The notes below the pieces were generated by a model that ran no database searches, was not told where the DNA came from, and was given only the letters and a program-made list of their open reading frames with translations. A stretch of 59,030 bases of DNA from Planctomycetales bacterium (GTDB lineage: Bacteria > 4484-113): positions 1 to 59,030 of the forward strand of contig JAUWGS010000012.1 of NCBI GenBank assembly GCA_030606285.1, read 5' to 3'. Both the position numbers and the translations under genes were made by a program. How positions within the stretch are numbered: the first letter of the stretch is position 1; the number at the start of each line of letters is the position of its first letter. Shown one piece after another: positions 295 to 48,730 of the stretch.

Positions 295-520
295 TAGGCG
301 GGCAAAGCCCGCAAGGGCGTAGGGAATAGGGATTAGCTAAATCCTAACCCCTAAGCTCTGACCCCTCCACAGACGGGCAAGCCCGGCGTACTCATGGGGC
401 GGCGGGCAAGCATTTATGGCCGCCGCCCTGAGGTATACAGGGAAGAGCGGCGGGGCACAGGTCCCCGCCCTACAGGAAAGCGCGCAAGGGCAATTCGTGA
501 ATTGCCCCTACAAGAGCGGC
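295..520. repeat. Cluster of short hairpin units each followed by CCTAAG/CCCTACAR (REP/MITE-like family)
   Basis: Seen directly: ggattagctaaatcc+cctaag; ggcggcggg..ccgccgccc; gcggcggggcacaggtccccgcc+ctacag (447-477); gggcaattcgtgaattgccc+ctacaag (487-513, identical copy at 44178-44205). Confidence 0.5.
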
Positions 521-2049: not shown

Positions 2050-2375
2050 TTCTCTGTAGGGCGCGCACCTGTGGCGCGCCGCTGGGGGATTGCGCAAAGA
2101 TGGTAGACGGCGGGGCACACCCTCCGGCACCTGCGGAGTGGCGGGTAAAGGTCCCTGCCCTACAGAAAGAGCCGGGCTGGTTAGCCCGGCCTACCCGTGG
2201 AGGGTGGAATCACGGGCGGGACGCCCGTGCCACTAAGGAGACGCCCTACGGCGATTCACCCGTGGACGGCGAAGGGCACGGCGTGCCGTGCCCCACAATG
2301 GGTAGCGCCGGCTATCCAGTCGGCGGTAGCGGCAGTCAGCCGCCCTCCATAGGCGGGTAAACCTGGATAGGCGGC
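2050..2375. repeat. Second cluster of hairpin-CTACAR repeat units in the asnA 3' intergenic region
   Basis: ggcgcgcacctgtggcgcgcc palindrome; ggtccctgccctacag; gccgggctggttagcccggc+ctaccc; cacgggcgggacgcccgtg; ccctacggcgattcacccgtggacggcgaagggcacggcgtgccgtgcccc+acaa (about 85 percent identical to 2814-2870 inside the next CDS); ccgccctccataggcgggtaaacc. Confidence 0.5.
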
Positions 2376-2448: not shown

Positions 2449-4800
2449 ATGATCGGGATAAGAGCAGGCAAATTCGCGCTGGGGACCGTCGCAGTTGCGG
2501 CGTGCATTGCGCTTGCGCTCGTGCTTAGCACTTGCGGTGGGGGGAGTGGCAAGAGTGCGGTAGTCCAGGGCTTAAGCCCTGGCTCTTCGCCAGACAATAA
2601 GACCAGCCCTGAAGGGCTAGACTACCAGGCGGATACGACGATTTCCCTCGACCAGACGCTTACAGAGCTTGAGGGGATGGAGAAACCGGAGGGAGTGGAC
2701 GAAGCGCTGTTTGAGGAATTGAAGGATGCGCTGAACGAGGCTCTTACCTGTAGGGCGGCCATTTATGGCCACCGCGATTCTAGCCGGAAAGATGACGGCG
2801 GGGATGAATCCCCGCCCTACAGCGATTCATCCGTGGACGGCGACGGGCACAGCATGCTGTGCCCCTACAAGTCCGTGGCGACACCCCCTACCGGCGAAGT
2901 AAATCGGGTCAACGACCTTACCATCCTCGACAAGGGCGATGGGACATACACGCTCACGTGGCATTACAGGAACCTCGGCGATTACGACCAAGATGGGATT
3001 GTGGGACTACCCGACATCTATCCGCTGGCGGAGCATTTTGGGGAGACCTATGAGCCGACCGATGCGAACTGCATCCAGGCAGTGATTGACGGCAGCAGCA
3101 ATGGGCGCATCGGCATTGAAGAAATCACGCCGATTGCGATGAATTACGCAGTGGACGTGCATCATTACGCGGTAGAAGGCGCGCCCGACCAAGAAGGCCC
3201 ATTTGAGCCGGTCGGCGAAATCGCACAGGATGCGGGAACCGGCGAGGGGCGCCTTGAATACAGCGCAATCATCGAATCCCCAGCCGCGCTGTGGCATAGA
3301 GTGGTGCCCTACGATAGCGAAGGCGAGCCGGGCGAGCCGAGTAATGCCGTGCTGCGGCCCAGCAATGAGCCGATAATCTACGAGGTCAGCCCCACCGAGG
3401 GCTACCAGCACGAGGAATACACGTTTACGGCGGTCGTGACCGGCGCGGAGATGCTTGAATACGCCTGGGACTTCGGCGGCGGCGCGGTGCCCAACACATC
3501 CTCCGATCCCTCACCGACCGTCACCCTCGCCGACGCAGGCGTTTACTCAGCCTCCCTCACCGTCACCAACGCCTACGGCGAAGCCTCCTTCCCTTTCACC
3601 CTCACCATCTCCGAACGCGACATCTGGGCCCATACCTGGGGAACTAGCGGTACGGATATTACGACTGACATAGTTATTGATGGAAATGGTTATGTATACC
3701 TCGCCGAAGTAGGTGGAGTACTGGTGAAGTTCAGCAGTTCCGGCGAGTTTCGCTGGGCGCGCTGCTGGGACACGGGTGGCCACCAGACTTTGACCGACTT
3801 GTGGCTAATGGACGATGGACGGCTCCTGGGCTGTGGCTCGTGCGCAGCTTCGGGTGGGGACGGATACGACGATGTGCTGTTGATTGAGTACAGCGACGAT
3901 GGAGATGTGTTGCGTGCGATGACATGGGGTACGGAGGATCACGAGCGCGCCAGTCAATTTGTGATAGACGACGCAGGCAACATCTATTTGTGTGGAAGCT
4001 GGACCGAAGCGTGGGGAGATGAGTCGGTGCTGCTAATGAAGCTCGATGCGGAGTGGAATGTGCTGTGGTCGAAGGTGTGGGGAAGCTTCAGCGATGATGA
4101 GAGCGCTCGCGGCATTGCGCTCAGCGACGGCGCTATATATGTATCGGGCAGCAAGGGCCCCTGGGGCACCGGTGACGCGCTGCTTATGAAGCTGACTCTG
4201 GAAGGCGAGGTGCTCTGGGCGAAAACCTGGGGTACGGAAAAGCATGACTCACTGACCGACCTAGTAATCTGCCCCGACGGGTGCATATATGCTGTGGGGA
4301 CAATTTGGAAACGCGATCCGGACCCTAAAGCCGGAATCATATTGAAATACGATAGGGACGGGAGTCTGTTGGCAGCCAAGGGCTGGAATCCGAACCAGAG
4401 GAGTGGGATTACGAGCATACGTGCTGACCCTTATGGAACGCTGACTGCGGTGGGAAGCGATGGATATGACCTACTGCTTGTCAGACTGGATAGTGACCTG
4501 AATGTGGTCGCGGGTAAGGCCAGGCATCCGGAGGGACACTCGAACCAAGGCGTTAGCTGCGCTTATGACGCTGATTTCAACCTGTATGTCGCTGGGAACG
4601 TACATGATTACCCGCTCGGACAGTGGGAGGACCTTGAGGACAGGAGTTACATCATTGAAGGTGTAGAGGCAGAGGTAGAGGGCACCGTTTGGAGCCCCAA
4701 CGGAGACTCCGCTATTCCTGATGGCACACAAACAGAAGTTACAGGAGTCATCGACGGTAGCTTCGGTGGCTTTGACTTGCTGATATTGAAGAACTATTAG
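2449..4800 (+). CDS. Secreted lipoprotein with dockerin-like Ca-binding repeat pair, PKD domain and SBBP beta-propeller repeats; N-terminal linker contains in-frame repeat-element insertions
   Basis: 783 aa; signal/lipobox LALVLSTCGGGSGKS; DYDQDGIVGLPDIYPLAEHFG and SNGRIGIEEITPIAMNY (dockerin-like); YAWDFGGG...YSASLTVTNAYGE (PKD); repeated WGTSGTD/WGTEDHE/WGSFSDDE/WGTEKHD blocks (SBBP); RBS ggggtgagATG. Confidence 0.75.
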   Translation: MIGIRAGKFALGTVAVAACIALALVLSTCGGGSGKSAVVQGLSPGSSPDNKTSPEGLDYQADTTISLDQTLTELEGMEKPEGVDEALFEELKDALNEALTCRAAIYGHRDSSRKDDGGDESPPYSDSSVDGDGHSMLCPYKSVATPPTGEVNRVNDLTILDKGDGTYTLTWHYRNLGDYDQDGIVGLPDIYPLAEHFGETYEPTDANCIQAVIDGSSNGRIGIEEITPIAMNYAVDVHHYAVEGAPDQEGPFEPVGEIAQDAGTGEGRLEYSAIIESPAALWHRVVPYDSEGEPGEPSNAVLRPSNEPIIYEVSPTEGYQHEEYTFTAVVTGAEMLEYAWDFGGGAVPNTSSDPSPTVTLADAGVYSASLTVTNAYGEASFPFTLTISERDIWAHTWGTSGTDITTDIVIDGNGYVYLAEVGGVLVKFSSSGEFRWARCWDTGGHQTLTDLWLMDDGRLLGCGSCAASGGDGYDDVLLIEYSDDGDVLRAMTWGTEDHERASQFVIDDAGNIYLCGSWTEAWGDESVLLMKLDAEWNVLWSKVWGSFSDDESARGIALSDGAIYVSGSKGPWGTGDALLMKLTLEGEVLWAKTWGTEKHDSLTDLVICPDGCIYAVGTIWKRDPDPKAGIILKYDRDGSLLAAKGWNPNQRSGITSIRADPYGTLTAVGSDGYDLLLVRLDSDLNVVAGKARHPEGHSNQGVSCAYDADFNLYVAGNVHDYPLGQWEDLEDRSYIIEGVEAEVEGTVWSPNGDSAIPDGTQTEVTGVIDGSFGGFDLLILKNY

Positions 4801-4819: not shown

Positions 4820-7800
4820 ATGAGAATACTTGTGTATTCAGCTTTGATGGCCCTGGTATGCACGGTCGCTTTTCTCGTGGTTGACTGCGGAAAGGGCAGG
4901 GATCGTGTAGTTCCAGCGTTTCATCAAGCCAAGGATCTTTCTTTGGCTGGTGCAGTTTCCGGCCAAGTTGATCCGAGGTTTACGGAGGAGGACTACCGTG
5001 TAATGGCGATGCCGCTTTCAGAGCGCATCGCCTACTTGGAGAAAAAACTGAAGGACTTGCTATTCAAGCACTACGGTATCGTTATTGAAGAGGACGTTAC
5101 CGCAGCCAAGAAGGCTTCCTTAGACGACCCGTTCCACAAAGTATGCGTTTACGTAGACGTGGACAACCCCAAAGAGAACCTCCAGCTCGTTCAGACCGAA
5201 AACAAGTGGGAATGGACGCTCTCATTCCTTGAACGATTATGCGGCGACTACGACTGGAACGGCACCGTGAGTATCGCCGACATTACACCAATTGCGATGT
5301 ACTTCAACAAGAAAGAGGAAGACCTGGACTGGATGGACGGGCCATATCACGTTGACCGGCTAGCCAACGACGATGGCAAAATCAGCATCGCGGATATTAC
5401 GCCTTTGGCCATCAACTTCGGCTATCAACTCACAGGATACAACGTCTACTGGCAGGACAGCACCGGAGGTGACTGGAGGCTCATTGCGGAATGGGACGAG
5501 TTTGAGCGCTCGAGTGGAACCTACCGGGACGAATGGTCCGACGTCTTCACCAAAAAGAGCATCTATCGTGAAACGTCACCCCCGATCACCATTGAGACGT
5601 CAAGCGGTAATGACCTGATTCGGGTGAAGCCGGTATTCAGCAGCGGGGAGCAGGACATCCCCAGCGAAACCGACATCTTTGGCCACGAGCTTGATTCTGA
5701 AGATTATCCGGACGGCAATCACGCCCCGGTGGCTGAAATCACGGCTGATCCGACGGAAGCGGAATGCGACGAGACCGTGACCTTCGACGCAAGCGGGAGC
5801 ACCGATGAGGACGAGGACACGCTCTACTACGAGTGGGACTGGGATGTATCGAACGGTGCTCAATGGTTCGATTCCGGTACCACAGATACAGCCGAATGGC
5901 AGTATACTTTGCCGCGAATCTATACGGCCACCGTGTGTGTAACTGACCAAGTGGGTGATTGGCACACTGACACGGTTGAAGTCGAGGTAGAGTATGTCCC
6001 TGCGACTGAACCGCCGACTGTCATCGAGTTCACGGTGGTTCCTGAACGCGCAACACTGCCAGCGACCATCAAGTTTATGACCCGAGCACAAGACAGGGAC
6101 GGGGACATCATTGAGACCATCGCGTTCGATCCTGATGGCGACATTGACTGGGACGACACGTTCGATGATGAGGACGAGGAGTTTACTGTGGAGAATCCCG
6201 GCGCACCCGATTACGAGAAGGTCTATAAAGCGGAGTATGATGTCACGTTCAACAGATCGGATGACTGCATTGCCGATGACATCCACACGACGCTAATCAT
6301 GTGCAGAACCAAAGTCGCCGATGATGATGAGAACGATGATGACACAATTAACATAACCCCGCTGTCGCTCACGCACGCGAGTCCGGTCATTCACAGTGTA
6401 TCGATCAGTCCCAAGGTGGGAACGTCCGACCCAGGCAACCCGAATGATCCCGTGACGGTAACCATTGACGCTTCAGATGCTTCAGACGCAGATGGGCCCG
6501 ACCAGTTCCCAACGAGGTTCGTCTTCTCGTTCGGTGATGGGTCAGTCGATCACACGGAGTCGTACGGCCAGCAGGGTTTTGACGGAATAGCGACCCATCC
6601 TTACAACGATCCCGGCGTATACCAAATCACAGTCACATGCTACGACGACGACCACACGGATATGGAAGGGAGCTGTAACGAACCTTCCAAGCACGTATTC
6701 GAATACAGTTGGGAGGACGACGAAGACGAAGATGGTAAAGTTTGGATTTACTTCGCTCCCGTATGGAAGCGTAACGAGGTCGTTGACAACGGAAGCCATA
6801 TCATTGATGGTGCGGACTGGCATAGCCTGGGCATACCCAGCATCGCCATCGATATTAATCCCAACACGGGATTCCCGGGAGTTGCATATGTTGGTCAGCC
6901 GGACGAAGAGGACCGCGAAGAGGACTGGCCGCTTATGTGTGCTCTCTTCTCTGAGAAGGGGAGCGAGGAAAACGGATGGAGCGACCCTGACATGGTCTGG
7001 ATGGAGAGCCTCGAAGAGGAAATTGCCAATATCGGTCAGCAATGCGACCTGACTTACCAGCCCTCAACCGCGCTACCGCTAGTAGCGGCTACGATAGAGA
7101 GGTATGAATTCGGGACAGGGCTGCCGCTGCCGGGGGGAATAGTACTGTACTATGGAGATGGAGGCTCTTGGCAATACTCATGGTTGGTGGATGACAACAC
7201 TGCATTACATTCATCGCCAATTCGCCTGGTTTCAATTGTGACGGGAAATGGCGGCAACTTCGTTCACTACAAGTTCGTGGAAGGTTTCGAAGAGGACCCT
7301 GCACTAATGGAGATATGTGACACTTCTGACCTTAACCAGTATGTCATCGTCGAGTCAGTCGGCTGGGAAACTGGCGGGGATGTGGGCAGGTCGCACGATC
7401 AGAAGCCATATCAAGGCAATCCGTACCAGAGAAAGAACTCGACGGTTTACAGCTACTCCCTGGAGTCAACGGACTACTTGAAATACGAACTCCTGTACTA
7501 CAATTATTTCTATCAGCAATATGATTGGACCGGCGTCCCCGAGACAATATCCCCGCCAGCACCTTCAACATACAGTACGAGGATGATTGCACATGATTAC
7601 CTTGGCGCTAAGTATGGTGTCCTTTGGGTCGACGGCAGCTCGGGCCTGAACTTCAAGCAGAGCGACTGGCAAAATGAGGACGAAGTGGAACCGGATGTCG
7701 GATCGTATTGCGACTTCGACTACGACCAAACCACGGGGATCATATGCGTCGCTTACGAGAAGCTGAGCGGCCAGAACATGGAGATCTACGTGGAAGTATA

Positions 7801-7960
7801 CATGGACGACGATTGGGTGGAGCTGGAAGATCCTATTGATAACCTGGGTGTAGGTGGTATATCACACTTGGACCTTGACGTTTCTAACGGTTACATTTAC
7901 GTAGCATACAGCAAGAACGACAACATCTACTGTGCGGTGATCGATTTCTACGATAGGTAG
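4820..7960 (+). CDS. Large highly acidic secreted protein with two dockerin-like repeat pairs and a PKD domain
   Basis: 1046 aa; signal peptide MRILVYSALMALVCTVAFLVV; DYDWNGTVSIADITPIAMYF and NDDGKISIADITPLAINFG; PKD block VTFDASGSTDEDEDTLYYEWDWD...YTATVCVTD; D/E-rich; RBS aaggagg 10 nt upstream; 19 nt after previous gene (operon). Confidence 0.75.
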   Translation: MRILVYSALMALVCTVAFLVVDCGKGRDRVVPAFHQAKDLSLAGAVSGQVDPRFTEEDYRVMAMPLSERIAYLEKKLKDLLFKHYGIVIEEDVTAAKKASLDDPFHKVCVYVDVDNPKENLQLVQTENKWEWTLSFLERLCGDYDWNGTVSIADITPIAMYFNKKEEDLDWMDGPYHVDRLANDDGKISIADITPLAINFGYQLTGYNVYWQDSTGGDWRLIAEWDEFERSSGTYRDEWSDVFTKKSIYRETSPPITIETSSGNDLIRVKPVFSSGEQDIPSETDIFGHELDSEDYPDGNHAPVAEITADPTEAECDETVTFDASGSTDEDEDTLYYEWDWDVSNGAQWFDSGTTDTAEWQYTLPRIYTATVCVTDQVGDWHTDTVEVEVEYVPATEPPTVIEFTVVPERATLPATIKFMTRAQDRDGDIIETIAFDPDGDIDWDDTFDDEDEEFTVENPGAPDYEKVYKAEYDVTFNRSDDCIADDIHTTLIMCRTKVADDDENDDDTINITPLSLTHASPVIHSVSISPKVGTSDPGNPNDPVTVTIDASDASDADGPDQFPTRFVFSFGDGSVDHTESYGQQGFDGIATHPYNDPGVYQITVTCYDDDHTDMEGSCNEPSKHVFEYSWEDDEDEDGKVWIYFAPVWKRNEVVDNGSHIIDGADWHSLGIPSIAIDINPNTGFPGVAYVGQPDEEDREEDWPLMCALFSEKGSEENGWSDPDMVWMESLEEEIANIGQQCDLTYQPSTALPLVAATIERYEFGTGLPLPGGIVLYYGDGGSWQYSWLVDDNTALHSSPIRLVSIVTGNGGNFVHYKFVEGFEEDPALMEICDTSDLNQYVIVESVGWETGGDVGRSHDQKPYQGNPYQRKNSTVYSYSLESTDYLKYELLYYNYFYQQYDWTGVPETISPPAPSTYSTRMIAHDYLGAKYGVLWVDGSSGLNFKQSDWQNEDEVEPDVGSYCDFDYDQTTGIICVAYEKLSGQNMEIYVEVYMDDDWVELEDPIDNLGVGGISHLDLDVSNGYIYVAYSKNDNIYCAVIDFYDR

Positions 7961-8084
7961 AATCGTAGTTCGGGCAGGATGTTGGACTCAGACGCGCAGC
8001 CCGCTCCTTTAAGGCGGGCTCCGCTGACATCCTGGTCGCAGTTTAACCGCGCCATTGACTTCGGCTATTCCGCGTGACACAATA

Positions 8085-8265
8085 GATATGTCCGCTGGTT
8101 CAAGGAAGGCGGTGAGAATCCGCCGCGGGCCAGCCACTGTGAGGTGGACCGGACCGCCGATATCCCATTGGCCCCGCCCGGCGCGGGGCTGAGAAGGGGG
8201 CGGAACCGGGATGAAACCGAGCCAGGAAACTTGTCGGCGGGCGACAACACGAGCTTCTGGGATTA
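8085..8265 (+). promoter_or_regulatory. Cobalamin (adenosylcobalamin) riboswitch
   Basis: Conserved core seen directly: aaggaaggcGGTGAGAATCCgccgcgggccaGCCACTGtga (B12 box) then gagaagggggcggaaccgggatgaaaccgagccaggaaac; sits 5' of an ABC importer and TonB receptor operon. Confidence 0.7.
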
Positions 8266-15486: not shown

Positions 15487-16821
15487 TCATTTCGCCGGAA
15501 GACGCTCACGGATGAAGGCTTCCAGCTTATTCTTCGCCCGCTCCGAAAAGGCCTGATGGCGGGCGCGCTTGCCGCGTGCGCCGGCTACCGGTGGCAGCAT
15601 CGAAAGCATAAACGCGGTGGGATGGTAATTATCCGGATCGGCTTCAACCATATAGCGCAGCATTGCGCCTGTTGCCGTTTCGCGCGGAAATTCGAGCGGC
15701 GAGTCGCCCTGCGCAAGCTGCGCCGCGTTCAGGCCCGCGACAAGGCCGGTGGCGGTCGCCGCGACGTAGCCTTCCAGGCCGGTTAGCTGCCCGGCGAAAA
15801 AGACGTGTGGGTATGCGCGCAGTTGCAGCGTCGGCAGCAGGTGTCTGGGCGCGCAGATGTAGTTGTTGCGATGCATCCTGCCAAAGCGCAGGAAGCGCGC
15901 GTTCTCCAAGCCGGGAATGCGTGCGAAGACGTCTTTCTGCGACTGCTGCGTGAGCCGCGTCTGGAAGCCAACGAGCGACCACGCTTTTTGCAGCGCGTCT
16001 TCGCGGCGAAGCTGCACCGCGGCGTATAGCCCTTCGACCTTCTCGCCGTCGCGCTTCAAGCCAACCGGCCGCAGAGGGCCGAAGCGCATTGCGCCTTCGC
16101 TGCGCCGCGCAAGCTCCTCGATGGGCAGGCAGCCCTCGAACGGCACGAATTCATCGCCCTCGTGCAGCGGAGCAAGGTCGGCGCTGAGCAGCGCGCGCCT
16201 AAAAGCTATGTAGTCATCTTCGGCAAGCGGCGCGTTAAGGTAGTCGTTGCCCGCGCCTTTGCCGTAGCGGCTGGCGAAGAAAAGGCGGGACATATCGAGC
16301 GAATCGCCCGCGACGATGGGCGACGTGGCATCGTAGAAGAAAAGCGAGTCGCCGCCCAAAAGCTGCTGCAGCTCCGCAAACAGCGGCGGATGCGTGGCGG
16401 GGCCCGTGGCAAGTATCACCGGCGCGTCCGGCTCATCTAAGAAACCGTGCAGTGACTCCACCGGCTCACGGGCTATCCGCAGGCCGTCCAGTTCGTCCAG
16501 GCGGCGCTCGATTTCAGCGGAAAAGCGGTCACGATCCACTGCCAGCGCCGCGCCCGCGGGCACGCGCGTTTCATCCGCAACCTGCATCAGCAGCGAGCCG
16601 AGCCGCTTCAGCTCCGCTTTGAGCATTCCGGGGGAGCGCAGCGGGTCATCGGACTTGAACGAGTTGGAGCAGACGAGCTCGGCAAGATGCGCCGTGTGGT
16701 GAAACGGCGTGACGGCGCGCGGGCGCATCTCGTAGAGCGTCACCTCCACGCCCCGCCGCGCAAGTTGGTACGCGGCTTCACAGCCCGCAAGCCCCCCGCC
16801 GATTACCACCGCTTCCGCCAC
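15487..16821 (-). CDS. trmFO: Methylenetetrahydrofolate--tRNA-(uracil54-C5)-methyltransferase TrmFO
   Basis: 444 aa; FAD-binding VIGGGLAGCEAAYQLA, LVCSNSFKS, GQLTGLEGYVAA motifs of TrmFO/Gid. Confidence 0.85.
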   Translation of the reverse strand: MAEAVVIGGGLAGCEAAYQLARRGVEVTLYEMRPRAVTPFHHTAHLAELVCSNSFKSDDPLRSPGMLKAELKRLGSLLMQVADETRVPAGAALAVDRDRFSAEIERRLDELDGLRIAREPVESLHGFLDEPDAPVILATGPATHPPLFAELQQLLGGDSLFFYDATSPIVAGDSLDMSRLFFASRYGKGAGNDYLNAPLAEDDYIAFRRALLSADLAPLHEGDEFVPFEGCLPIEELARRSEGAMRFGPLRPVGLKRDGEKVEGLYAAVQLRREDALQKAWSLVGFQTRLTQQSQKDVFARIPGLENARFLRFGRMHRNNYICAPRHLLPTLQLRAYPHVFFAGQLTGLEGYVAATATGLVAGLNAAQLAQGDSPLEFPRETATGAMLRYMVEADPDNYHPTAFMLSMLPPVAGARGKRARHQAFSERAKNKLEAFIRERLPAK

Positions 16822-16988
16822 GGGATGATGATAGCAGAGCGGGCGTCAGGGATGGTCGTCCTTCGCTTCTCTACAACTTCTCCGCATCGCTGGGAAGCAG
16901 CGCATCAGTGCGGCCAAGTCTGGAGCTTATCGAACAGCTCCTTCATCCTGACAGCGTTTTATGCTAGCCCGATAGTAGGCTGCGGTGA

Positions 16989-19194: not shown

Positions 19195-19420
19195 CTGCCC
19201 CATCTGGGGCGGATCGAGGTCGCGGCGAGCTTCGCAGATTTCGCGGCGGGGGGTAAACGCGCCTAGGCGCACAAGACCCCGCCCTACAAGAGGTGCGGCA
19301 CGCTTCGGCTTCGCTCTCTTCGAGCCTGAGCCTCAGAGCCGAAGGCAGCGTCTACGACAGAGACCGCACCCCGCCATAGGCGGGCAAGCCTACAGCGCAG
19401 TTTTCAGCCCGCACGGGGCT
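19195..19420. repeat. Hairpin-CTACAR repeat cluster
   Basis: gcgcctaggcgc+acaagaccccgccctacaag; ccgccataggcgg+gcaagcctacagcg. Confidence 0.45.
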
Positions 19421-20500: not shown

Positions 20501-21406
20501 GTGCGGCCCGCGCGTGATATAATCGCGGAAGTGGCGGAGCACCTGCAGCGGGTAGTCATCATCACCGGAATGAGCGGAGCCGGCAAGTCGACCGCGCTAC
20601 GCTGCTTCGAGGATATGGGCTACCTGTGCGTCGACAACATCCCGCCGCAGATCATCGAGACGTTTTTGAAGCTGCTGGGCCAGTCGGAGACCAGCCCGTC
20701 GCAGGTGGCGTTCGTCTGCGACATCCGCAGCGGCGCGCTGTTCGACGATTTCCACCGGGTCTGGGGCGAACTTTCGGATATGGGCGTGTCGCCACGCGTG
20801 ATTTTCCTGGATTCGGACAACGCAACGCTGGTGCGCCGCTACAAAGAGCTTCGGCGCCAGCATCCGCTCACCCAGGGCGGGATATCCAACGAGGCAGCCA
20901 TCACCAGCGAGCGCGAGCGGCTGGATCTGCTGAAAGAGCAGGCCACCGAGGTCATCGACACAACAAACCTGACGTCGCGCCAGCTAACCGACGCGTTGCG
21001 GGAGCTTTTCGTCGCCGGCGACCAGATGAGCTATGCGTCCCTCACGCTCGTGTCGTTCGGCTACAAGTACGGCGTGCCCACGGACGCCGACTTCATCTTC
21101 GACCTGCGCTTCCTGCCCAACCCGTTTTACGTGGAGGAGCTGAAGGAGCTTACAGGGCGTGACCAGGCGGTGTACGACTTCGTGATGAAGGACGAGCGCG
21201 CGGTGTGGGCGGGCGAGCGCATTTTAGAGCTGATTGAGGGCACGCTGCCGGGATTTGAGGCGGTGCAGAAGTTCAATTTGCTGGTGGCGCTGGGCTGCAC
21301 CGGCGGGAAGCACCGGAGCGTCACGCTGGTGAACTGGCTCAAAGAGCGCTTTGAAGAGCGCGACCGCCGCGTGCTGGTCATCCACCGGGATGTGGAGAAG
21401 CTGTAG
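20501..21406 (+). CDS. rapZ: RNase adapter protein RapZ (YvcJ/UPF0042 P-loop protein)
   Basis: VVIITGMSGAGKSTALRCFEDMGYLCVDNIP matches the RapZ N-terminus; true start may be GTG at 20531. Confidence 0.85.
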   Translation: MRPARDIIAEVAEHLQRVVIITGMSGAGKSTALRCFEDMGYLCVDNIPPQIIETFLKLLGQSETSPSQVAFVCDIRSGALFDDFHRVWGELSDMGVSPRVIFLDSDNATLVRRYKELRRQHPLTQGGISNEAAITSERERLDLLKEQATEVIDTTNLTSRQLTDALRELFVAGDQMSYASLTLVSFGYKYGVPTDADFIFDLRFLPNPFYVEELKELTGRDQAVYDFVMKDERAVWAGERILELIEGTLPGFEAVQKFNLLVALGCTGGKHRSVTLVNWLKERFEERDRRVLVIHRDVEKL

Positions 21407-21455
21407 GGAAGCCGAGGACGATCATCCCTGACGCCCGCTCTGGTATCATCATCGC

Positions 21456-22313
21456 GTGCGCTTTGTGGTGGGGACAAGCGGGTATGACTATCCGGAATGG
21501 GTTGGCGAGGACAGATTTTATCCCGCGAGTCTGGCGCACGACCGCAAGAGCTTCCTCACCTACTACTCTTCGCAGTTCCCGCTGGTGGAGCTCAACTTCA
21601 CGTATTACGGACATACCAATCCGGCTCAGATCGAGGGGATGCTCAAGAGGGTGCGGCCGGAAGCGGAGCTACACGTGCTGGAGGGCGCGTTTGCGCCACG
21701 CGAGGATTTTTCGTTCGCGGTCAAGGCCTACCGGGAGCTGACGCACGAAGTGTCGCGCGAATACGCGGAAGTTTCACGGAAGTTTCTGGCGGACATCGCG
21801 CCGCTAAACGATGCGGGTAAGCTAACAGCGGTGGTCTTCCAGTTTCCGCCGTCATTTCGCCCGGGCGCGGAGACCGCGAAGTATCTGGGATCGCTGGCGG
21901 ACGCTTTTACGGACTACCCCAAGGCGTTTGAGTTTCGCAACTCCGCGTGGTTCAGCGAGCAGGTCGCGGAGCAACTGGGCAAGTATCGGGTGCCGCTTTG
22001 CTGGGTGGATGCGCCTGAAACGTCGCACCTGCCGCGCCATTTCTTCCCGCTCACGGGCGATTTTGCCTATGCGCGGTTCCACGGGCGCAACGAAGACCAC
22101 TGGTGGGCCAAGGCGGATACACCGGACGAGGAAGCGAAACAGGCGCGTTACCACTACCGGTATGCGAGCAACGAGCTTGAGGAGCTGGCGAAGGCCATTG
22201 GCGAGACGGGCGCGCCGAAGGCGTTCTTGCTGTTCAACAACCACGTGGAGACCCACGCCGTCCGCAACGCCCGCAACCTGCAGGAGATACTGGATCGGCT
22301 GTTTGGGGAGTAG
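21456..22313 (+). CDS. DUF72 (YecE-like) family protein
   Basis: VGTSGYDYPEWVG..FYP and LVELNFTYYG signature of DUF72. Confidence 0.8.
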   Translation: MRFVVGTSGYDYPEWVGEDRFYPASLAHDRKSFLTYYSSQFPLVELNFTYYGHTNPAQIEGMLKRVRPEAELHVLEGAFAPREDFSFAVKAYRELTHEVSREYAEVSRKFLADIAPLNDAGKLTAVVFQFPPSFRPGAETAKYLGSLADAFTDYPKAFEFRNSAWFSEQVAEQLGKYRVPLCWVDAPETSHLPRHFFPLTGDFAYARFHGRNEDHWWAKADTPDEEAKQARYHYRYASNELEELAKAIGETGAPKAFLLFNNHVETHAVRNARNLQEILDRLFGE

Positions 22314-32269: not shown

Positions 32270-32319
32270 CCGGAATAGCCGGGCTGGTGAGCCCGGCGTA
32301 CTCCTGTTGGTCCGTCCCC

Positions 32320-35118: not shown

Positions 35119-36879
35119 CTAGTTCTCCTTACTACCTTCCTTAAGCCCTAGCTTCTTCCGCACATTCTCAACCAGCGGTGCGAATTCAGGATCGTCCTTG
35201 TAGGGTTCGAAGGCTGCGAAAACTGTATCTGGTTTGTCAACTTTAAAGCTCTCTCCCGATAGCACTTCTTGAACCTGAAGCTCGCTAATAGCTTTTTTCC
35301 GCTTCTTTTGCGCGGCCAGTGTAGCTGCTAGAATGATGTGGGGCCCCGCCTGCGAACGCAGTTTCTCATCGCCATCTAAAGCTCTCCGCAGCGATGCTTC
35401 AGCCTCTTCGAATCGCTTCGCACAGAAGAGCAGTTCCCCTTGACTTGCATAGGCTTCGTAGTAGTCGGGCTTGAGCTTCACCGCTTCCGCACACTTCTCT
35501 AGTGCTTCGTCATACTTGCCCAGCACTCCCAGCGCGATGCCCCAATTGTTGTAGGCTATAGCATACTCGGGCTTGTGCTTCACCGCTTCTGCGTACTTTT
35601 CGCACTCCTCTTTGTACTTGCCCAAGTTCCCCAGCGCTACACCCCAGTTGGAGTAGGCTTGGTGGTCGTCTGGCTTGTGCTTCACCGCTTCGGCATACTT
35701 CTCACATGCTTCCTCGTGCTTGCCAAGCATGGAAAGCGCAGTGCCCCAGTTGTAGTAGGCTTCAGCGTAATCGTGCTTGTGCTTCACTGCTTGTGCAAGC
35801 TTCTCACACGCTTCCTCATACCGGCCCAGCTTCCCTAGCGGCACGGCCCAGTTATTGTAAGCCACCGCATAATCGGGCTTGTGCTTCACCGCTTCTGCGT
35901 ATTTTTCGCACCCCTCTTTGTACTTGCCCAAGTTCCCCAGCGCTACACCCCAGTTGGAGTAGGCTTGGTGGTCGTCTGGCTTGTGCTTCACCGCTTCGGC
36001 ATACTTCTCACATGCTTCCTCGTCGCGGCCTAGCATGGAAAGCGCAGTGCCCCAGCAGAACCATAACCGCTCATCCTCGCTGTTATCAGCTTGGATGCTC
36101 TCCGCAATACTCACTGTGATGGCATGAGCATCCCTATAATGAGCAGTCAGCAAGTCGCGTATTGAGTACTTCCGCGGCTTCGAAAGCTCAGCAGCATATG
36201 CAGGTGCGGTGCTCTCAATCCGCTTTCGCAGGTTTTCTTTCAAGTCCTTAATTTGGGGAAGAACGTCACTCGCCAGAACTCTCCTTAGTAACTCCTCACT
36301 GGCCTTATCGAGAGCTCGCTTCTGCTTTTTCCGCACTCCTGGCGCCAAAGCGGTATACTCGCGGAGGTCGTCAAGCTCCTTCTTAGTCTCTGCGAGCTCC
36401 TTTTCCGTTCGAGTAAGCTGCAAAACAGGGCTCGGTGAATATGGTTTTATAAGAACATCCAGCACAGCATCAGTGCCTTCATCACTGGCCCTGAGAGCTT
36501 CAAGCAAGAGGCGCCATTCTTCGGCTTGCGACAAGTCGTAGTAGTGGTATGCTTTGAATCTCTCAGAAGGCATGTCCGGCCCAAGCTTAACAACTAACGG
36601 TGCTCTATTCTCGTGGCAGGACTGGAAGTCTTCCAACTCCTGAAGGCATCTTGGCCTGTCATCCCAGCTTTTGCTGTATAGGAGTAGGAACTCACGGCAG
36701 CAGTCAACTGCCCCTGAAGTCTCCCTCTCGATATGACCGCTGACCAGGTGAATCGGATCGAACCAGGGAGAGATCCCGGCGAATCTAAGGACGACGTAAA
36801 GCGCCTTCGCTGCCGCACCATGCGTATCTTTGTGATAGCTGATAAAGCAATCGTATTCGCGTTCTTTCTTCTCGTCCAT
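35119..36879 (-). CDS. TIR-domain protein with coiled-coil and multi-TPR array (candidate NADase-type defence effector)
   Basis: Start ATG 36879 (RBS gggagg); N-terminus EYDCFISYHKD...ALYVVLRFAGISPWFD is a TIR fold; at least 9 TPR units (AEAVKHKPDxxxAYxNWGxALGxLGKYxE); DNA-level near-identical 190-bp tandem repeats with 306-bp period. Confidence 0.75.
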   Translation of the reverse strand: MDEKKEREYDCFISYHKDTHGAAAKALYVVLRFAGISPWFDPIHLVSGHIERETSGAVDCCREFLLLYSKSWDDRPRCLQELEDFQSCHENRAPLVVKLGPDMPSERFKAYHYYDLSQAEEWRLLLEALRASDEGTDAVLDVLIKPYSPSPVLQLTRTEKELAETKKELDDLREYTALAPGVRKKQKRALDKASEELLRRVLASDVLPQIKDLKENLRKRIESTAPAYAAELSKPRKYSIRDLLTAHYRDAHAITVSIAESIQADNSEDERLWFCWGTALSMLGRDEEACEKYAEAVKHKPDDHQAYSNWGVALGNLGKYKEGCEKYAEAVKHKPDYAVAYNNWAVPLGKLGRYEEACEKLAQAVKHKHDYAEAYYNWGTALSMLGKHEEACEKYAEAVKHKPDDHQAYSNWGVALGNLGKYKEECEKYAEAVKHKPEYAIAYNNWGIALGVLGKYDEALEKCAEAVKLKPDYYEAYASQGELLFCAKRFEEAEASLRRALDGDEKLRSQAGPHIILAATLAAQKKRKKAISELQVQEVLSGESFKVDKPDTVFAAFEPYKDDPEFAPLVENVRKKLGLKEGSKEN

Positions 36880-36970
36880 GGAGCTGACCTCCCACTGCAA
36901 TTATAGCCCAATAGGTGACAGTTAGGCTTTTGCAGTCTACAAGCCCTTCAATATCCGGTCGAAGTCTAAA

Positions 36971-37000
36971 CGGCGGGGCGCAGAGACCCCGCCCTACAGG
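36971..37000. repeat. Hairpin-CTACAR unit overlapping the 3' end of the HicB-like gene
   Basis: cggcggggcgcagagaccccgcc+ctacagg; the CTA of ctacag is the TAG stop (minus strand) of the CDS. Confidence 0.45.
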
Positions 37001-37218
37001 GGAACCGGTACGCAGGGCATGTCTTTTTTCTGTTCCCGATACGCTTCAATCATCTCGTCCAGGGCGTCTTCGAGCATCTCCCGACACTCTTCGAGGGTTT
37101 TTCCTTCGGTCACAACTTCCGGCCATTCCAGCAGCTGCCCCATGTAGCCCTCGGAGAGCTCAACGTACTTCGCGGTGAAAAGGTGGACGTTACGCCTAGC
37201 TGTTGTTCGCTTCACCAT
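36994..37218 (-). CDS. HicB-family antitoxin-like protein (UPF0150), no adjacent HicA
   Basis: YVELSEGYMGQLLEWPEVVTEGKTLEECREMLEDALDEMIEAY matches the HicB/UPF0150 consensus; start taken at MVKR. Confidence 0.5.
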   Translation of the reverse strand: MVKRTTARRNVHLFTAKYVELSEGYMGQLLEWPEVVTEGKTLEECREMLEDALDEMIEAYREQKKDMPCVPVPL

Positions 37219-44169: not shown

Positions 44170-44215
44170 GTATTAGCAGGGCAATTCGTGAATTGCCCCT
44201 ACAAAGAAGGGCGAG
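44170..44215. repeat. Hairpin-CTACAR unit (exact copy of the 487-513 unit)
   Basis: gggcaattcgtgaattgcccctacaa is identical to the unit at 487-513. Confidence 0.5.
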
Positions 44216-47671: not shown

Positions 47672-47747
47672 TCGGGGCGTGGCTCAGTCCGGTTAGAGCG
47701 CAGCGTTCGGGTCGCTGAGGTCGCGAGTTCGAATCTCGCCGCCCCGA
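47672..47747 (+). tRNA. tRNA-Pro (anticodon CGG)
   Basis: Cloverleaf read by hand: acceptor cggggcg/cgccccg, D-arm gctc..gagc, anticodon stem cagcg/cgctg with loop ttCGGgt, T-arm gcgag-ttcgaat-ctcgc, discriminator A, CCA not encoded. Confidence 0.85.
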
Positions 47748-47751
47748 TTGT
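47717..47751 (+). repeat. Direct repeat copy 1 (3' 35 nt of the tRNA-Pro, attL-like)
   Basis: gaggtcgcgagttcgaatctcgccgccccgattgt. Confidence 0.7.
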
Positions 47752-47854
47752 ATTTCGTTGCCCGTGGCAGCAGCGAGCCACCGGGATTGCGGGCGACTTT
47801 GCGAAGTGGATGATCTGATTTTAGAACGTAAGGGCTGATGGAGGGTCGGAACTG

Positions 47855-48055
47855 ATGGCGCGATTTACTCTTGAATACTGGAAGGATGAAGGCTGGTATG
47901 TCGGGCGGCTTAAACAAGTGCCTGGCATCTTCAGCCAGGGCGAGTCGCTCGAAGAGCTCGAAGAAAACATCCGCGAAGCCTACGCGCTGATGAGAGAAAC
48001 CGAAGCCGCGCCCGACCTCGACGTGCAGCCCGAAGAGGTTGAGATTGAAGTGTGA
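47855..48055 (+). CDS. hicB: HicB-family antitoxin
   Basis: 66 aa; YVGRLKQVPGIFSQGESLEELEENIREAYALM matches HicB; RBS ggaggg. Confidence 0.75.
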   Translation: MARFTLEYWKDEGWYVGRLKQVPGIFSQGESLEELEENIREAYALMRETEAAPDLDVQPEEVEIEV

Positions 48056-48231
48056 AGCGGCGCGAGCTAATACGGGAGCTTACGCGCGCGGGATGCTACC
48101 TGCTGCGCCGGGGTAGGAAGCACGACATCTACATCAATCCGCGCACCGGAAGGAAAGCGCCGGTGCCCCGGCACAACGAAATACCCGACAGCATGCGCCG
48201 GATGGTTCGCACGCAGCTTGGGCTGAAGTAG
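48052..48231 (+). CDS. hicA: HicA-family mRNA-interferase toxin (not in the ORF track; GTG start)
   Basis: Hand translation VKRRELIRELTRAGCYLLRRGRKHDIYINPRTGRKAPVPRHNEIPDSMRRMVRTQLGLK* fits the HicA consensus (ELI..L...G..L.R..GSH.I..NP..G....VPRH.E); GTG overlaps the hicB stop (gtGTGa). Confidence 0.75.
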   Translation: MKRRELIRELTRAGCYLLRRGRKHDIYINPRTGRKAPVPRHNEIPDSMRRMVRTQLGLK

Positions 48232-48265
48232 AGGTCGCGAGTTCGAATCTCGCCGCCCCGATTGT
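48231..48265 (+). repeat. Direct repeat copy 2 (duplicated tRNA-Pro 3' end, attR-like)
   Basis: Identical 35 nt gaggtcgcgagttcgaatctcgccgccccgattgt. Confidence 0.7.
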
Positions 48266-48271
48266 TTTTTG

Positions 48272-48730
48272 CATCACATCAAGATGTGGAGCCATCCTGG
48301 TAGTCCAGGGCTTCAGCCCTGGTCTTTTCATCCGACGAGCCAGCCCTAAAGGCTTGCCCGCCTGGGCGGGGCTGGACTACCGGATTCTCTTTCGTAGGGG
48401 CACGGCACGCCGTGCCCGCCAACGTGGATAAGGATGCAAAAGGGCATAGCATGCTATGCCCCTACAATCAACAACGACACTTTAGAGACGGACGCGCAGT
48501 CTCCAGGCTGCGCGATTGAAGGCATATAAGGAGTGGCGGCCCGCCGGCGCCTGTGGCGTGGCGGGTAAACCTGGAGATTTACACGCCTGGGCGTGCCGCC
48601 ACTCCAGGTTTAATCAGAGAAGACGGCGGTCATACCCTCCGACGCTTGCGCTATAGCGGGCAAGAATGACCGCCCTACAGCGTCCCTTCTTGCTGACGCT
48701 TGCCCGCCATAGCTTTAGCGGCGGCGGGAC
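48272..48730. repeat. Large cluster of the 85-bp TIR element and hairpin-CTACAR repeat units
   Basis: ggtagtccagggcttcagccctgg...ggctggactaccgg (85-bp TIR element homologous to 2560-2640); gggcacggcacgccgtgccc; gggcatagcatgctatgcccctacaa; gtggcgggtaaacctggag; gaccgccctacagcg. Confidence 0.5.

What the first reader, a model, noticed from the sequence alone, without database searches (positions are those of the whole stretch)
2555..2880. Two different repeat elements inserted in-frame inside a surface lipoprotein gene
Within CDS 2449..4800, nt 2560-2640 are a copy of the 85-bp TIR element seen intergenically at 48297-48385 (ggtagtccagggcttMagccctgg...agactaccagg). Nt 2750-2880 are hairpin-CTACAR units homologous to intergenic 2243-2297. 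Both are read through in frame (AVVQGLSPGSSPDNKTSPEGLDYQ and GHRDSSRKDDGGDESPPYSDSSVDGDGHSMLCPYKS) in the linker between the lipobox and the first dockerin-like repeat. Small noncoding repeats appear to have been co-opted as coding linker sequence.
Basis: seen in the sequence. Interest (0 to 1): 0.65.

Follow-up and report, generated by a model that had tools for sequence, protein, structure and literature searches.

The report
Palindromic repeats translated inside lipoprotein linkers
Short palindromic DNA repeats (GTAG-type REP elements) that normally sit between genes are read in frame as part of two flexible linkers of a surface lipoprotein, and related genes carry different sets of them at the same two sites; repeats read inside genes are already known, but this is an unusually clear and recurrent case.

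Summary
CDS 2449..4800 is an intact lipoprotein gene with an invariant lipobox Cys29, PKD domain and beta-propeller. It reads through (i) an inverted pair of GTAG-tagged palindromes at 2559-2626, a short form of the intergenic copy at 48299-48381, and (ii) a second inverted pair at 2748-2822, a 21-nt spacer and a single unit at 2845-2870. Part of the second array matches intergenic 2242-2294.

Both "different" elements are the same kind of thing: GTAG-type REPs arranged as head-out dimers (REPIN-like). They are not MITEs, because there is no target-site duplication.

Conserved coding blocks flank both sites in 42 family members. Fifteen members have a 15-30-nt linker 2 with none of the recognised repeat units. 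Twenty-three carry 81-141 nt, mostly recognisable GTAG-REP units or dimers, in at least six combinations. Twelve of 13 distinct long types keep the frame. The closest homologue carries different hairpin elements in both linkers.

Linker composites are 100% identical between paralogues whose flanks are 55-85% identical, which points to recent mobility or gene conversion.

Intragenic GTAG REPs and Rickettsia RPEs are already described, so this is a new member of a known kind. The twist is a recurrent hotspot inside a multigene family. No RAYT transposase was found in the sequence available.

The parts
2449..4800 (+). Host gene: a 783-aa lipoprotein with a signal peptide, lipobox LSTC (Cys29 codon at 2533-2535), a PKD domain at aa 308-380 and a C-terminal SBBP-type beta-propeller
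   Evidence: ORF. Pfam PKD. Partial match to NCBIfam LipL53-family SBBP lipoprotein. Full-length homologues of 752-783 aa with Cys29 invariant.
2559..2626 (+). REP dimer A (short form) inside linker 1. GTAG at 2560-2563 is followed by palindrome CCAGGGCTTAAGCCCTGG (2565-2582). A spacer follows, then hairpin AGCCCTGAAGGGCT (2605-2618) and CTAC at 2622-2625. The dimer and its immediate flanks (2557-2628) are read as AVVQGLSPGSSPDNKTSPEGLDYQ.
   Evidence: It is 97% identical over 67 nt to copies in two L002 genes whose proteins are about 50-57% identical to the window protein. No target-site duplication.
2644..2745 (+). Conserved coding block b1 (SLDQTLTELEGMEKPEGVDEALFEELKDALNEAL), which separates the two repeat-bearing linkers. 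Predicted helices at aa 67-75 and 85-106.
   Evidence: tblastn finds it in 42 family copies. Alignment. AF2 secondary structure. No excess RNA structure.
2748..2822 (+). REP dimer B with GTAG heads outward, 75 nt: CT-GTAG-GG-CGGCCATTTATGGCCACC ... GGCGGGGATGAATCCCCGCC-CTAC-AG. Read as CRAAIYGHRDSSRKDDGGDESPPYS.
   Evidence: It lies in the opposite orientation to the homologous dimer in L003, L004, L011 and L023: 61-62 of 75 nt match the reverse complement, against 54-56 of 75 for the forward strand.
2823..2843 (+). 21-nt spacer CGATTCATCCGTGGACGGCGA, homologous to intergenic 2251-2271. Present in L011 and absent from L003, L004 and L023, so it is an in-frame indel.
   Evidence: (D7).
2845..2870 (+). 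Single REP unit 'T1', GGGCACAGCATGCTGTGCCCCTACAA, read as GHSMLCPYK. It sits directly before the conserved K/S-V-A junction.
   Evidence: Identical over 27 of 27 nt in five genes from three samples while the flanks diverge. The exact 26-mer occurs in at least 120 metagenome contigs. It is stop-free in the three reading frames seen in different genes (GHSMLCPYK here; GAQHAVPLQ and RGTACCAPT in the Y1-transposase ORFs).
2881..2997 (+). Conserved coding block b2 (TPPTGEVNRVNDLTILDKGDGTYTLTWHYRNLGDYDQDG), which begins the folded part of the protein
48299..48381 (+). Intergenic long form of REP dimer A, with GTAG at 48300-48303 and CTAC at 48377-48380
   Evidence: (z = -3.6). It lies between tRNA-Pro and the next ORF at 49241. 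Its open frame LVVQGFSPG...GLPAWAGLDYR matches the long-form peptides of P0004 and P0018.
2054..2345 (.). Intergenic REP array immediately upstream of the gene. It holds a head-out dimer at 2056-2163 and further hairpins at 2171-2194, about 2208-2232, 2242-2294 and 2302-2325. Each of these types also occurs inside the linkers of paralogues.
   Evidence: P0006's linker CRARTCGAPLGDYAKMVDGGAQVPALQ equals the translation of 2054-2167.
446..513 (+). Intergenic REP units of family B (two units)
48394..48467 (.). Intergenic pair of T1-like REP units: 48394-48417 (-) and 48442-48467 (+)
19263..19291 (+). Intergenic REP unit of family B. Further single units lie at 36972-37001, 44178-44204, 48656-48682, 58055-58080 (-) and 32274-32306.

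Best explanation
The repeats are GTAG-type repetitive extragenic palindromes (REPs). Some are single units and some are head-out inverted dimers, which makes them REPIN-like.

They lie inside two unstructured tether segments of a secreted lipoprotein. Linker 1 runs from the lipobox to a short conserved helical block. Linker 2 runs from that block to the folded part of the protein. Transcription and translation run straight through them, so each palindrome contributes about 8-25 residues of linker.

Shown here:
- They are REP-like in anatomy, and otherwise lie between genes in this window.
- The reading frame is continuous and is flanked by conserved coding sequence.
- Family members exist with short linkers that lack the recognised repeat units.
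- Different members carry different element sets, and one dimer occurs in both orientations.
- The composites are identical between otherwise diverged paralogues.

Inferred:
- The elements entered by the usual REP route (single-strand, Y1-transposase/RAYT-dependent), or by short-tract gene conversion from paralogues that already carried them.
- Only versions that were multiples of three and free of stop codons survived selection.
- A disordered tether tolerates almost any sequence or length, so the inserts are neutral or nearly so.
- Once one REP is present it attracts more, because REPs cluster, and it promotes recombination. That would make both linkers fast-evolving hotspots.
For: **REP anatomy**
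- Each unit is a GC-rich hairpin abutting GTAG/CTAC.
- Dimers carry GTAG on the outside at 2056-2163, 2560-2625, 2750-2820 and 48300-48380.
- The window holds 13 units against 3.1 +/- 1.5 in shuffles.
- Every REP-family unit outside this gene lies in a gap between long ORFs.

**Read-through**
- Cys29 and blocks b1 and b2 are conserved.
- In 42 family copies, 40 have a linker-2 length divisible by three with no stop codon. Twelve of 13 distinct long types are in frame, which gives a binomial p of about 2e-5.

**Insertion rather than ancestry**
- Fifteen members have 15-30-nt linkers such as AARGEAKTVS, and 23 have 81-141 nt, mostly recognisable REP units.
- The closest homologue, L001, is about 88% identical in nucleotides over the gene body but only 27-45% in both linkers. 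It carries other hairpin elements there.
- The window's dimer is the reverse complement of the one in L003, L004 and L011.

**Recent mobility or conversion**
- Linker 2 is 100% identical between L039 and L003b, and between L027 and L013, while b1 and b2 are 53-87% identical.
- The same linker type sits on downstream domains that are 29-78% identical to the window's.
- Exact shared tracts of at least 40 nt are about 17 times denser in linker 2 than downstream.
- The L002 tandem paralogues are identical up to the REP tail CCCCTACAA and diverge immediately after it.

**T1 is a genuine REP**
- The exact 26-mer occurs in at least 120 metagenome contigs. Only one clear case (L140) lies in a family linker.
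- It is physically linked to Y1_Tnp genes in four of those loci.

**Tolerance**
- The REP-coded residues are coil with the lowest pLDDT in the model, 24-29.
- The palindromes are nearly stop-free.

**Precedent**
- Intragenic GTAG REP dimers encoding 20-30 residues are described, with the suggestion that they sit in flexible linkers (PMC3733652).
Against: - No RAYT/Y1 transposase was found in the window or in 0.44 Mb of related loci. The mobilising enzyme is therefore only inferred for this lineage.
- Identical tracts extend 9-24 nt beyond the REPs into coding sequence. This fits gene conversion better than clean transposition, and the two routes cannot be separated here.
- Two linker types (ESRLSSRDS... 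and SGLESPDS...) were seen only inside family linkers and never intergenically in the sequence sampled. Not every linker hairpin is shown to be a genomic REP.
- The AF2 model has low confidence over the whole N-terminal half, not only the linkers.
- There is no expression or proteomic evidence that the peptide is made.
- The related loci were fetched through the gene family, so the claim that only this family hosts intragenic REPs rests mainly on the 59-kb window.
Confidence: 0.8

Rival explanations
1. The REPs in the linkers are functional recombination signals. As hairpin or cleavage sites, they start short-tract gene conversion or module exchange among paralogous lipoprotein genes. This would shuffle the promoter, signal peptide and tether 'leader' cassettes and diversify surface proteins.
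For: - The L002 tandem paralogues are 100% identical from about 135 nt upstream of the ATG to the REP tail, and only about 80% identical directly after it.
- Identical linker composites sit on very different backbones.
- Exact tracts are about 17 times denser in linker 2 than downstream.
- The window's dimer is inverted relative to that of its paralogues, as expected from recombination between inverted arms.
Against: - All of these patterns are also expected from passive homology-driven conversion at any shared repeat. Nothing shows selection for the exchange.
- Tract ends are near REP boundaries but not always at them.
- The sample of paralogue pairs is small and partly redundant across related MAGs.
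Confidence: 0.2
2. The start codon is mis-called. The true gene would begin downstream of the repeats, for example at the in-frame GTG at 2875, and the repeats would be 5' untranslated or intergenic REPs, as Di Nocera et al. warn for N-terminal cases.
For: REPs in N-terminal coding regions are often annotation artefacts (PMC3733652). An in-frame GTG exists at 2875. The repeat arrays have open frames by chance reasonably often.
Against: - A lipoprotein signal peptide with an invariant Cys, and the conserved 34-residue block b1, lie upstream of and between the repeats, in the same frame, in 18 aligned homologues and 42 genomic copies.
- Insert lengths are multiples of three in 12 of 13 distinct long types.
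- A protein starting at 2875 would lack any export signal.
- GGGGTGAG lies directly before the ATG at 2449.
Confidence: 0.03
3. The direction of descent is the reverse. The palindromic linker sequences would be native to this gene family, and the intergenic copies would be decayed fragments of family genes.
For: - Several specific variants were seen more often in family linkers than elsewhere in the loci sampled, and two types were seen only in linkers.
- The richest intergenic array (2054-2345) lies directly upstream of the family gene.
Against: - The intergenic copies are isolated hairpin units with no trace of b1 or b2 around them, next to unrelated genes.
- In an unbiased scan, T1 occurs in at least 120 unrelated contexts with GC 0.31-0.67. 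Only about one is a family gene, and several are next to or inside Y1 transposase genes.
- Short-linker family members exist.
- The loci were selected through the family, which biases that count.
Confidence: 0.04
4. Assembly artefact: metagenome assemblers collapsed or mis-joined contigs at shared repeats and created a chimeric in-frame linker.
For: Several related contigs begin or end inside the REP linker (L007, L029, L030, L032). This shows that assemblers do break there.
Against: - The same architecture, in frame, recurs in independent assemblies from JGI, ENA and NCBI and in several MAGs.
- The window gene aligns end to end with homologues of 752-783 aa.
- A random mis-join would keep the frame only one time in three, yet 12 of 13 types keep it.
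Confidence: 0.03

Closest known systems
Intragenic GTAG-type REPs (Di Nocera et al. 2013, PMC3733652), for example in Opitutus terrae
   Same: - GC-rich hairpin tagged by GTAG.
- Mostly extragenic, often as head-out dimers or clusters.
- A minority lie entirely within ORFs, in frame, with dimers encoding about 20-30 residues.
- The authors propose that such inserts sit in flexible linkers or loops.
- That study also reports GTAG REPs in the PVC (Planctomycetes, Verrucomicrobia, Chlamydiae) superphylum.
   Different: - There the hosts are many unrelated genes, notably replication and repair genes, usually with one event each.
- Here two defined linkers of one multi-copy lipoprotein family are hit repeatedly, by at least six element combinations.
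- There is rapid turnover between close homologues, and the composites are identical across diverged paralogues.
Rickettsia palindromic elements (RPE; Ogata et al. 2000 and 2002, as summarised in PMC10969869 and PMC3184786)
   Same: Palindromic selfish repeats inserted in frame into protein-coding genes, translated, and located where they are compatible with the protein fold.
   Different: - RPE-1 elements are about 100-150 bp, and RPE-4 and RPE-6 belong to the CGTC superfamily (PMC3733652). Neither is GTAG type.
- They are Rickettsia-specific and scattered over unrelated genes. They are not a hotspot in a paralogous family.
The REPIN/RAYT system (Bertels & Rainey; PMC3337134, PMC5581495; TnpA-REP, PMC8266576)
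   Same: Two inverted REPs separated by a spacer form one hairpin. GTAG is the conserved head. The T1 unit is found beside and inside Y1_Tnp genes in other metagenomic loci.
   Different: - REPINs are defined as extragenic and tied to a single-copy RAYT in the same genome. No RAYT could be found in the sequence available for this lineage.
- The exact T1 26-mer occurs in contigs with GC 0.31-0.67. That is unlike the lineage-specific, vertically inherited REPIN populations described.
MITEs fused in frame to ORFs (ERIC, BOX and Anabaena MITEs; Delihas 2007 and 2011, PMC3184786)
   Same: Small non-autonomous repeats with inverted ends whose open frames fuse with host ORFs.
   Different: MITEs have true terminal inverted repeats derived from an IS element and make target-site duplications. 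Element A has no duplication, and its 'TIRs' are GTAG plus a palindrome.

Membership tests
GTAG-type REP / REPIN | Short (about 20-40 nt) GC-rich imperfect palindrome that forms a stem-loop | tested here: met
   Stems of 6-8 bp or more with 4-8-nt loops in every unit. Folding z-scores are -2.0 to -3.6, against about 0 for flanking coding DNA.
GTAG-type REP / REPIN | Conserved unpaired GTAG tetranucleotide at one end of the palindrome | tested here: met
   Family B units all end in (C)CCTAC-AR, which is YT-GTAG-GG on the other strand. Element A is G-GTAG-T + CCAGGGCTTAAGCCCTGG ... ACTAC-C.
GTAG-type REP / REPIN | Repeated many times, predominantly in extragenic space | tested here: met
   13 strict units in 59 kb against 3.1 +/- 1.5 in shuffles. 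Every REP-family unit outside CDS 2449..4800 lies in a gap between long ORFs. Only 59 kb of this genome is available, so the genome-wide copy number is unknown.
GTAG-type REP / REPIN | Units paired in inverted orientation (head-out dimers) able to form one long hairpin | tested here: met
   Dimers at 2056-2163, 2560-2625, 2750-2820 and 48300-48380. Predicted long hairpins.
GTAG-type REP / REPIN | A cognate RAYT (Y1_Tnp) gene in the same genome, flanked by the REPs | not testable with these tools
   tblastn with E. coli RayT and with two environmental RAYT-like proteins found nothing in the window or in loci L001-L044, but this is a small part of any genome. Indirect support: T1 lies beside or inside Y1_Tnp ORFs (Pfam PF01797 above cut-off) in L161, L143, L056 and L131.
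MITE | Target-site duplication flanking the element | tested here: not met
   The flanks are ...gtgcg|element|aggcg... and ...tcctg|element|ggatt..., with no direct repeat.
MITE | Terminal inverted repeats related to those of an IS/transposase partner | not tested
   The inverted ends are GTAG plus a palindrome. No IS with matching ends was looked for beyond the window.
Rickettsia palindromic elements | In-frame, translated insertion of a palindromic repeat inside a protein-coding gene | tested here: met
   This shows the elements work like RPEs, not that they belong to the RPE family.
Rickettsia palindromic elements | Sequence membership of an RPE family (RPE-1 to RPE-10; the small ones carry a CGTC tag) | tested here: not met
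   The units carry GTAG/CTAC tags, not CGTC. The RPE-4/6 = CGTC assignment is from PMC3733652. No direct alignment to RPE sequences was made.
Bacterial lipoprotein (host gene) | N-terminal signal peptide ending in a lipobox with an invariant Cys | tested here: met
   MIGIRAGKFALGTVAVAACIALALVLS-T-C29-GG. Cys29 is invariant and Gly30 is nearly invariant in 18 homologues. A lipobox was found in most genomic copies. This is pattern-based only; no signal-peptide predictor was available.
Dockerin | Match to the dockerin repeat profile | tested here: not met
   Pfam scan of aa 145-305 at E <= 10 returned nothing. The similarity is limited to DxDxDG-like motifs seen by eye.

The most novel reading that the evidence does not exclude
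REP hairpins embedded in the coding tethers act as portable recombination sites. They would drive exchange and inversion of 'leader' cassettes (promoter, signal peptide, tether) among dozens of paralogous surface-lipoprotein genes. In this reading a selfish repeat family has become the engine of surface-protein diversification in an uncultured lineage. The same universal palindrome (T1) is also carried in frame inside its own Y1-transposase gene across genomes with GC from 36% to 66%.
Probability: 0.2. Interest if true: 0.65.

Novelty: new member of a known kind. Interest (0 to 1): 0.45.

Why it matters
- It is a clean natural example of selfish DNA palindromes becoming protein sequence. Empty sites, filled sites, both orientations and several element types are all visible within one gene family.
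- It shows that a disordered tether can act as a safe landing pad for mobile DNA. It also shows that the least conserved part of a gene family can be the place where paralogues share the longest identical DNA.
- For annotation, peptides such as GHSMLCPYK, GAQHAVPLQ and RGTACCAPT are signatures of translated REPs rather than protein motifs.
- If REPs do seed recombination between paralogues, this would be a simple route to surface-protein mosaicism.

Tried and rejected
- Exact-sequence look-up of P0001 and P0006 found no contigs on record. The cluster look-up gave no names or taxonomy. The organism is therefore known only through related MAGs, titled 'bacterium' or 'Planctomycetales bacterium'.
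- Classifying repeat copies as coding or non-coding by overlap with stop-to-stop ORFs of at least 150 aa was useless, because 92% of this GC-rich DNA lies in such ORFs. I used gaps between long ORFs in the window instead.
- The RAYT search in the window and related loci was negative.
- The AF2 model was too weak in the N-terminal half (18-sequence alignment, pLDDT below 55) to prove disorder specifically. I used it only as weak support and ran no fold search.
- Pfam and NCBIfam gave no dockerin hit.
- blastn with a 97% identity filter missed the identical tracts because HSPs extended into diverged flanks. An exact-match scan replaced it.
- The orientation of the 23-nt spacer inside dimer B is ambiguous, at about 10-11 of 23 matches either way. 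Only the arms show the inversion.
- Long open frames over T1 in metagenome loci are mostly arginine-rich junk. They were not counted as coding.
- The MITE reading was rejected for lack of a target-site duplication.
Full report
**1. What is in the sequence**

The ORF 2449..4800 (+) encodes 783 residues. It begins with a hydrophobic signal peptide and the lipobox L-S-T-C29, carries a PKD domain (aa 308-380) and ends in an SBBP-type beta-propeller. GGGGTGAG lies directly before the ATG.

Two stretches of the 5' part are repeats.

- Element A, 2559-2626, is GGTAGT + CCAGGGCTTAAGCCCTGG ... AGCCCTGAAGGGCT + AGACTACC. Its first 24 nt recur at 48299-48322, and in none of 100 shuffles. The alignment shows that the intergenic copy 48299-48381 is a longer form with an extra inner hairpin.
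- Element B covers three parts: 2748-2822 (CTGTAGGG-hairpin ... hairpin-CCCTACAG), a 21-nt spacer, and 2845-2870 (GGGCACAGCATGCTGTGCCCCTACAA, called T1 here). The stretch 2813-2865 is 89% identical to intergenic 2242-2294.

About ten further hairpin-CCCTACAR units lie at 446-513, 2054-2345, 19263-19291, 36972-37001, 44178-44204, 48394-48467, 48656-48682 and 58055-58080. All are in gaps between long ORFs. A strict detector counts 13 units in the window, against 3.1 +/- 1.5 in dinucleotide shuffles. The repeat segments fold better than shuffles: z = -2.0 for the CDS copy of element A, -3.6 for its intergenic copy and -3.2 for the CDS array 2746-2872. The coding blocks next to them do not (z = -0.3 and +0.8).

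**2. The two elements are one kind of thing**

Read on the other strand, hairpin-CCCTACAR is YT-GTAG-GG-hairpin. Element A is two such units facing each other: G-GTAG-T-palindrome ... palindrome-A-CTAC-C.

A GC-rich stem-loop tagged by an unpaired GTAG, often paired with the tags outside, is the published definition of GTAG-type REPs and their dimers (PMC3733652). It also fits REPINs (PMC3337134, PMC5581495). Element A has no target-site duplication, so it is not a MITE in the strict sense.

**3. The frame really runs through them**

The protein has many full-length relatives of 752-783 residues. In an alignment of 18 of them, Cys29 is invariant. Two blocks are strongly conserved: SLDxTLxELEGMExPEGVDEALWxELKDAL (b1, window 2644-2745) and TPPTGEANRVNDL...HYRNLGDYDQ (b2, from 2881). 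Element A lies between the lipobox and b1. Element B lies between b1 and b2. A start downstream of the repeats is therefore excluded.

tblastn located b1 and b2 in 42 gene copies, in the window, three metagenome contigs and the MAG loci L004-L044. The DNA between the two blocks (linker 2) falls into three size classes:

| Linker 2 length | Copies | Content |
|---|---|---|
| 15-30 nt | 15 | none of the recognised repeat units (for example AARGEAKTVS) |
| 38-45 nt | 4 | intermediate |
| 81-141 nt | 23 | mostly recognisable REP units or dimers |

Forty of the 42 lengths are multiples of three with no stop codon. Counting each distinct long type once, 12 of 13 are in frame, where one third would be expected without selection (p about 2e-5).

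**4. Insertion, turnover and both orientations**

The long linkers are built from a limited set of hairpin units, and most of these also occur intergenically in the window:

- head-out dimers of the CGGGG.../GGCC... type (window, L003, L004, L011, L023);
- GCGCGCC.../GGGGCAC... dimers (L005, L014, L038, P0006);
- the CACGGGCGGGACGCCCGTG hairpin (L011-, L015, L020, L028; window 2208-2232);
- a heterodimer of GTAG-GCCGGGCTCACCAGCCCGGC with T1 (L002, L003b, L008, L012, L039; compare window 2171-2194);
- two further hairpin types, seen so far only in linkers (L001, L010, L013, L027, L024).

Linker 1 shows the same pattern. Element A occurs in its short form in the window and both L002 genes, and in its long form in P0004 and P0018. 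Many other members carry a GGGTAGCGCCGCCTATCCAGGCGGCG unit, read as HRVAPPIQA, which is also intergenic at window 2300-2325.

The closest homologue, P0002/L001, is 78-80% identical in protein and shares part of the upstream flank. It is about 88% identical in nucleotides over the gene body but only 27-45% in both linkers, where it carries other elements. The segments are not conserved.

The window's dimer B matches the reverse complement of the dimer in L003, L004 and L011 at 61-62 of 75 positions, with both arms essentially perfect. The forward strand matches at only 54-56 of 75. The same element is therefore present in both orientations, in frame each time.

**5. Signs of recent movement or gene conversion**

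- T1 is 27/27 identical in five genes from three samples, although the flanks differ.
- Element A is 97% identical between the window and L002 genes whose proteins are about 50-57% identical to the window protein.
- Whole linker-2 composites are 100% identical over about 100-140 nt between L039 and L003b, and between L027 and L013. The conserved blocks either side are 53-87% identical.
- One linker type sits on downstream domains that are 29-78% identical to the window's.
- In all-against-all comparisons of non-identical members, exact tracts of at least 40 nt have a density of 0.49 per nt in linker 2. This compares with 0.18 in b1, 0.06 upstream and 0.03 downstream.
- In L002 two tandem paralogues are identical from about 135 nt upstream of the ATG to the REP tail CCCCTACAA and diverge immediately after it.
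- Because identical tracts usually extend 9-24 nt into the coding flanks, short-tract conversion between paralogues is at least as likely as fresh transposition.

**6. T1 is a widespread REP linked to Y1 transposases**

Locus GC ranges from 0.31 to 0.67, and 30 of 125 occurrences are full two-headed palindromes, GTAG...CTAC. The contexts are unrelated to one another. Only one (L140) is clearly a family linker, and one (L132) is a REP cluster of the window's type.

Four loci encode one subfamily of RAYT-like proteins: L161, L143, L056 and L131. L161 and L143 score above the Pfam Y1_Tnp cut-off. In L161, L143 and L056 T1 lies in frame just after the HUH motif, read as GAQHAVPLQ or RGTACCAPT, and L131 carries a variant (RAQHAVPLR) at that position plus an exact T1 about 280 nt upstream of the gene. 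L161 also has a T1 51 nt upstream of the gene. This ties T1 to the REP/RAYT world.

No RAYT was found in the window or in 0.44 Mb of related loci. For this lineage the enzyme is only inferred.

**7. Why the protein tolerates it**

The REP-coded residues (aa 31-60 and 107-153) are predicted as coil and have the lowest confidence in the model, pLDDT 24-29. Helices are predicted in b1, and the folded domains start after b2. The whole N-terminal half is poorly modelled, so this is weak support.

T1 is open in the three frames seen in different genes. The only built-in stop is the TAG of the GTAG head, in one frame. Intergenic arrays also have one or two open frames. An in-frame, stop-free insertion is therefore not rare, and selection only has to remove the rest.

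**8. Comparison with what is known**

Intragenic GTAG and CGTC REPs, often dimers encoding 20-30 residues, have been catalogued. Those authors proposed that they are neutral because they fall in flexible linkers (PMC3733652). Rickettsia RPEs are the classic in-frame palindromes (PMC10969869, PMC3184786).

The present case works the same way and meets every REP criterion that could be tested. What is unusual is the concentration. Two defined linkers of one multi-copy lipoprotein family are occupied in more than half of the copies, by at least six element combinations. Close homologues differ through turnover, the dimer occurs in both orientations, and composites are homogenised across paralogues.

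**9. Verdict**

It is a new member of a known kind.

The most novel reading not excluded is that the REPs drive cassette exchange among the paralogues (about 0.2). Rivals are unlikely: a mis-called start, the reverse direction of descent and assembly artefact each score 0.03-0.04.

Limits:
- only 59 kb of the genome is available;
- there are no expression data;
- the related loci were chosen through the family;
- taxonomy is unresolved (MAG titles read 'bacterium' or 'Planctomycetales bacterium').

Noticed in passing
Metagenome loci L046-L165, especially L161:3269-3901, L143:520-1089, L056:4560-5200 and L131:2197-3080: The exact 26-mer REP T1 (GGGCACAGCATGCTGTGCCCCTACAA) occurs in at least 120 metagenome contigs with GC 0.31-0.67. 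In L161, L143 and L056 it lies in frame inside a RAYT-like Y1-transposase ORF just after the HUH motif, read in different frames (GAQHAVPLQ or RGTACCAPT), including one 36%-GC locus. L131 has a variant (RAQHAVPLR) at that position and an exact T1 about 280 nt upstream of the gene. A GC-rich palindrome kept at the DNA level inside its putative transposase gene, across very different genomes, looks worth its own study.
   Followed up: partly
window 47672-48269: tRNA-Pro(CGG) at 47672-47748 is followed by a roughly 0.5-kb islet that ends in a 39-nt copy of the tRNA's 3' end (48231-48269, 97%). The islet carries two overlapping small ORFs: 47855..48055 (HicB/UPF0150-like, below the Pfam cut-off) and 48052..48231 (HicA toxin, E = 3.5e-10). 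It looks like a toxin-antitoxin module integrated at the tRNA 3' end. The intergenic REP dimer A lies directly after it.
   Followed up: partly
window 16819-16888 and 21389-21458: A 70-nt inverted repeat (89% complementary) with arms 4.5 kb apart. Each arm lies immediately upstream of one of two divergently oriented genes (15487..16821 on the minus strand, 21456..22313 on the plus strand), so it is probably a shared leader or promoter element. No Rfam family matches it.
   Followed up: partly
L002:1055-1563 versus L002:3866-4374, and L002:3575-3874 versus L002:6403-6702: Tandem paralogous lipoprotein genes share 97-100% identical upstream regions, 5' leaders and 3' flanks, while the gene bodies are only about 57-80% identical. 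The 5' identity stops exactly at the tail of a REP unit.
   Followed up: partly
L007:25, L029:8, L030:47-117, L032:47-117: Several MAG contigs begin inside the REP-bearing linker of a family gene. Assemblies evidently break at these repeats, so the family's copy number and linker diversity are probably underestimated.
   Followed up: no
L041:10199-10311 and L033:10114-10151: These are the only two family copies whose linker 2 is not a multiple of three. L041's also contains a stop codon. They may be pseudogenes, sequencing errors or misplaced block boundaries.
   Followed up: no
window 35461-36023: About 5.5 tandem copies of a 102-nt (34-residue) unit lie inside CDS 35119..36900 on the minus strand, which by length looks like ordinary TPR-type protein repeats.
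   Followed up: no
window 8079-8252: A cobalamin riboswitch (Rfam RF00174, 89 bits) lies upstream of the operon that starts at 8388.
   Followed up: no
window 4820-7960: The neighbouring 1046-residue gene has the same overall layout (signal peptide with Cys, helical segment, DxDxDG-like repeats, PKD domains) but contains no REP-family units. A tether alone is therefore not sufficient to attract the repeats.
   Followed up: partly
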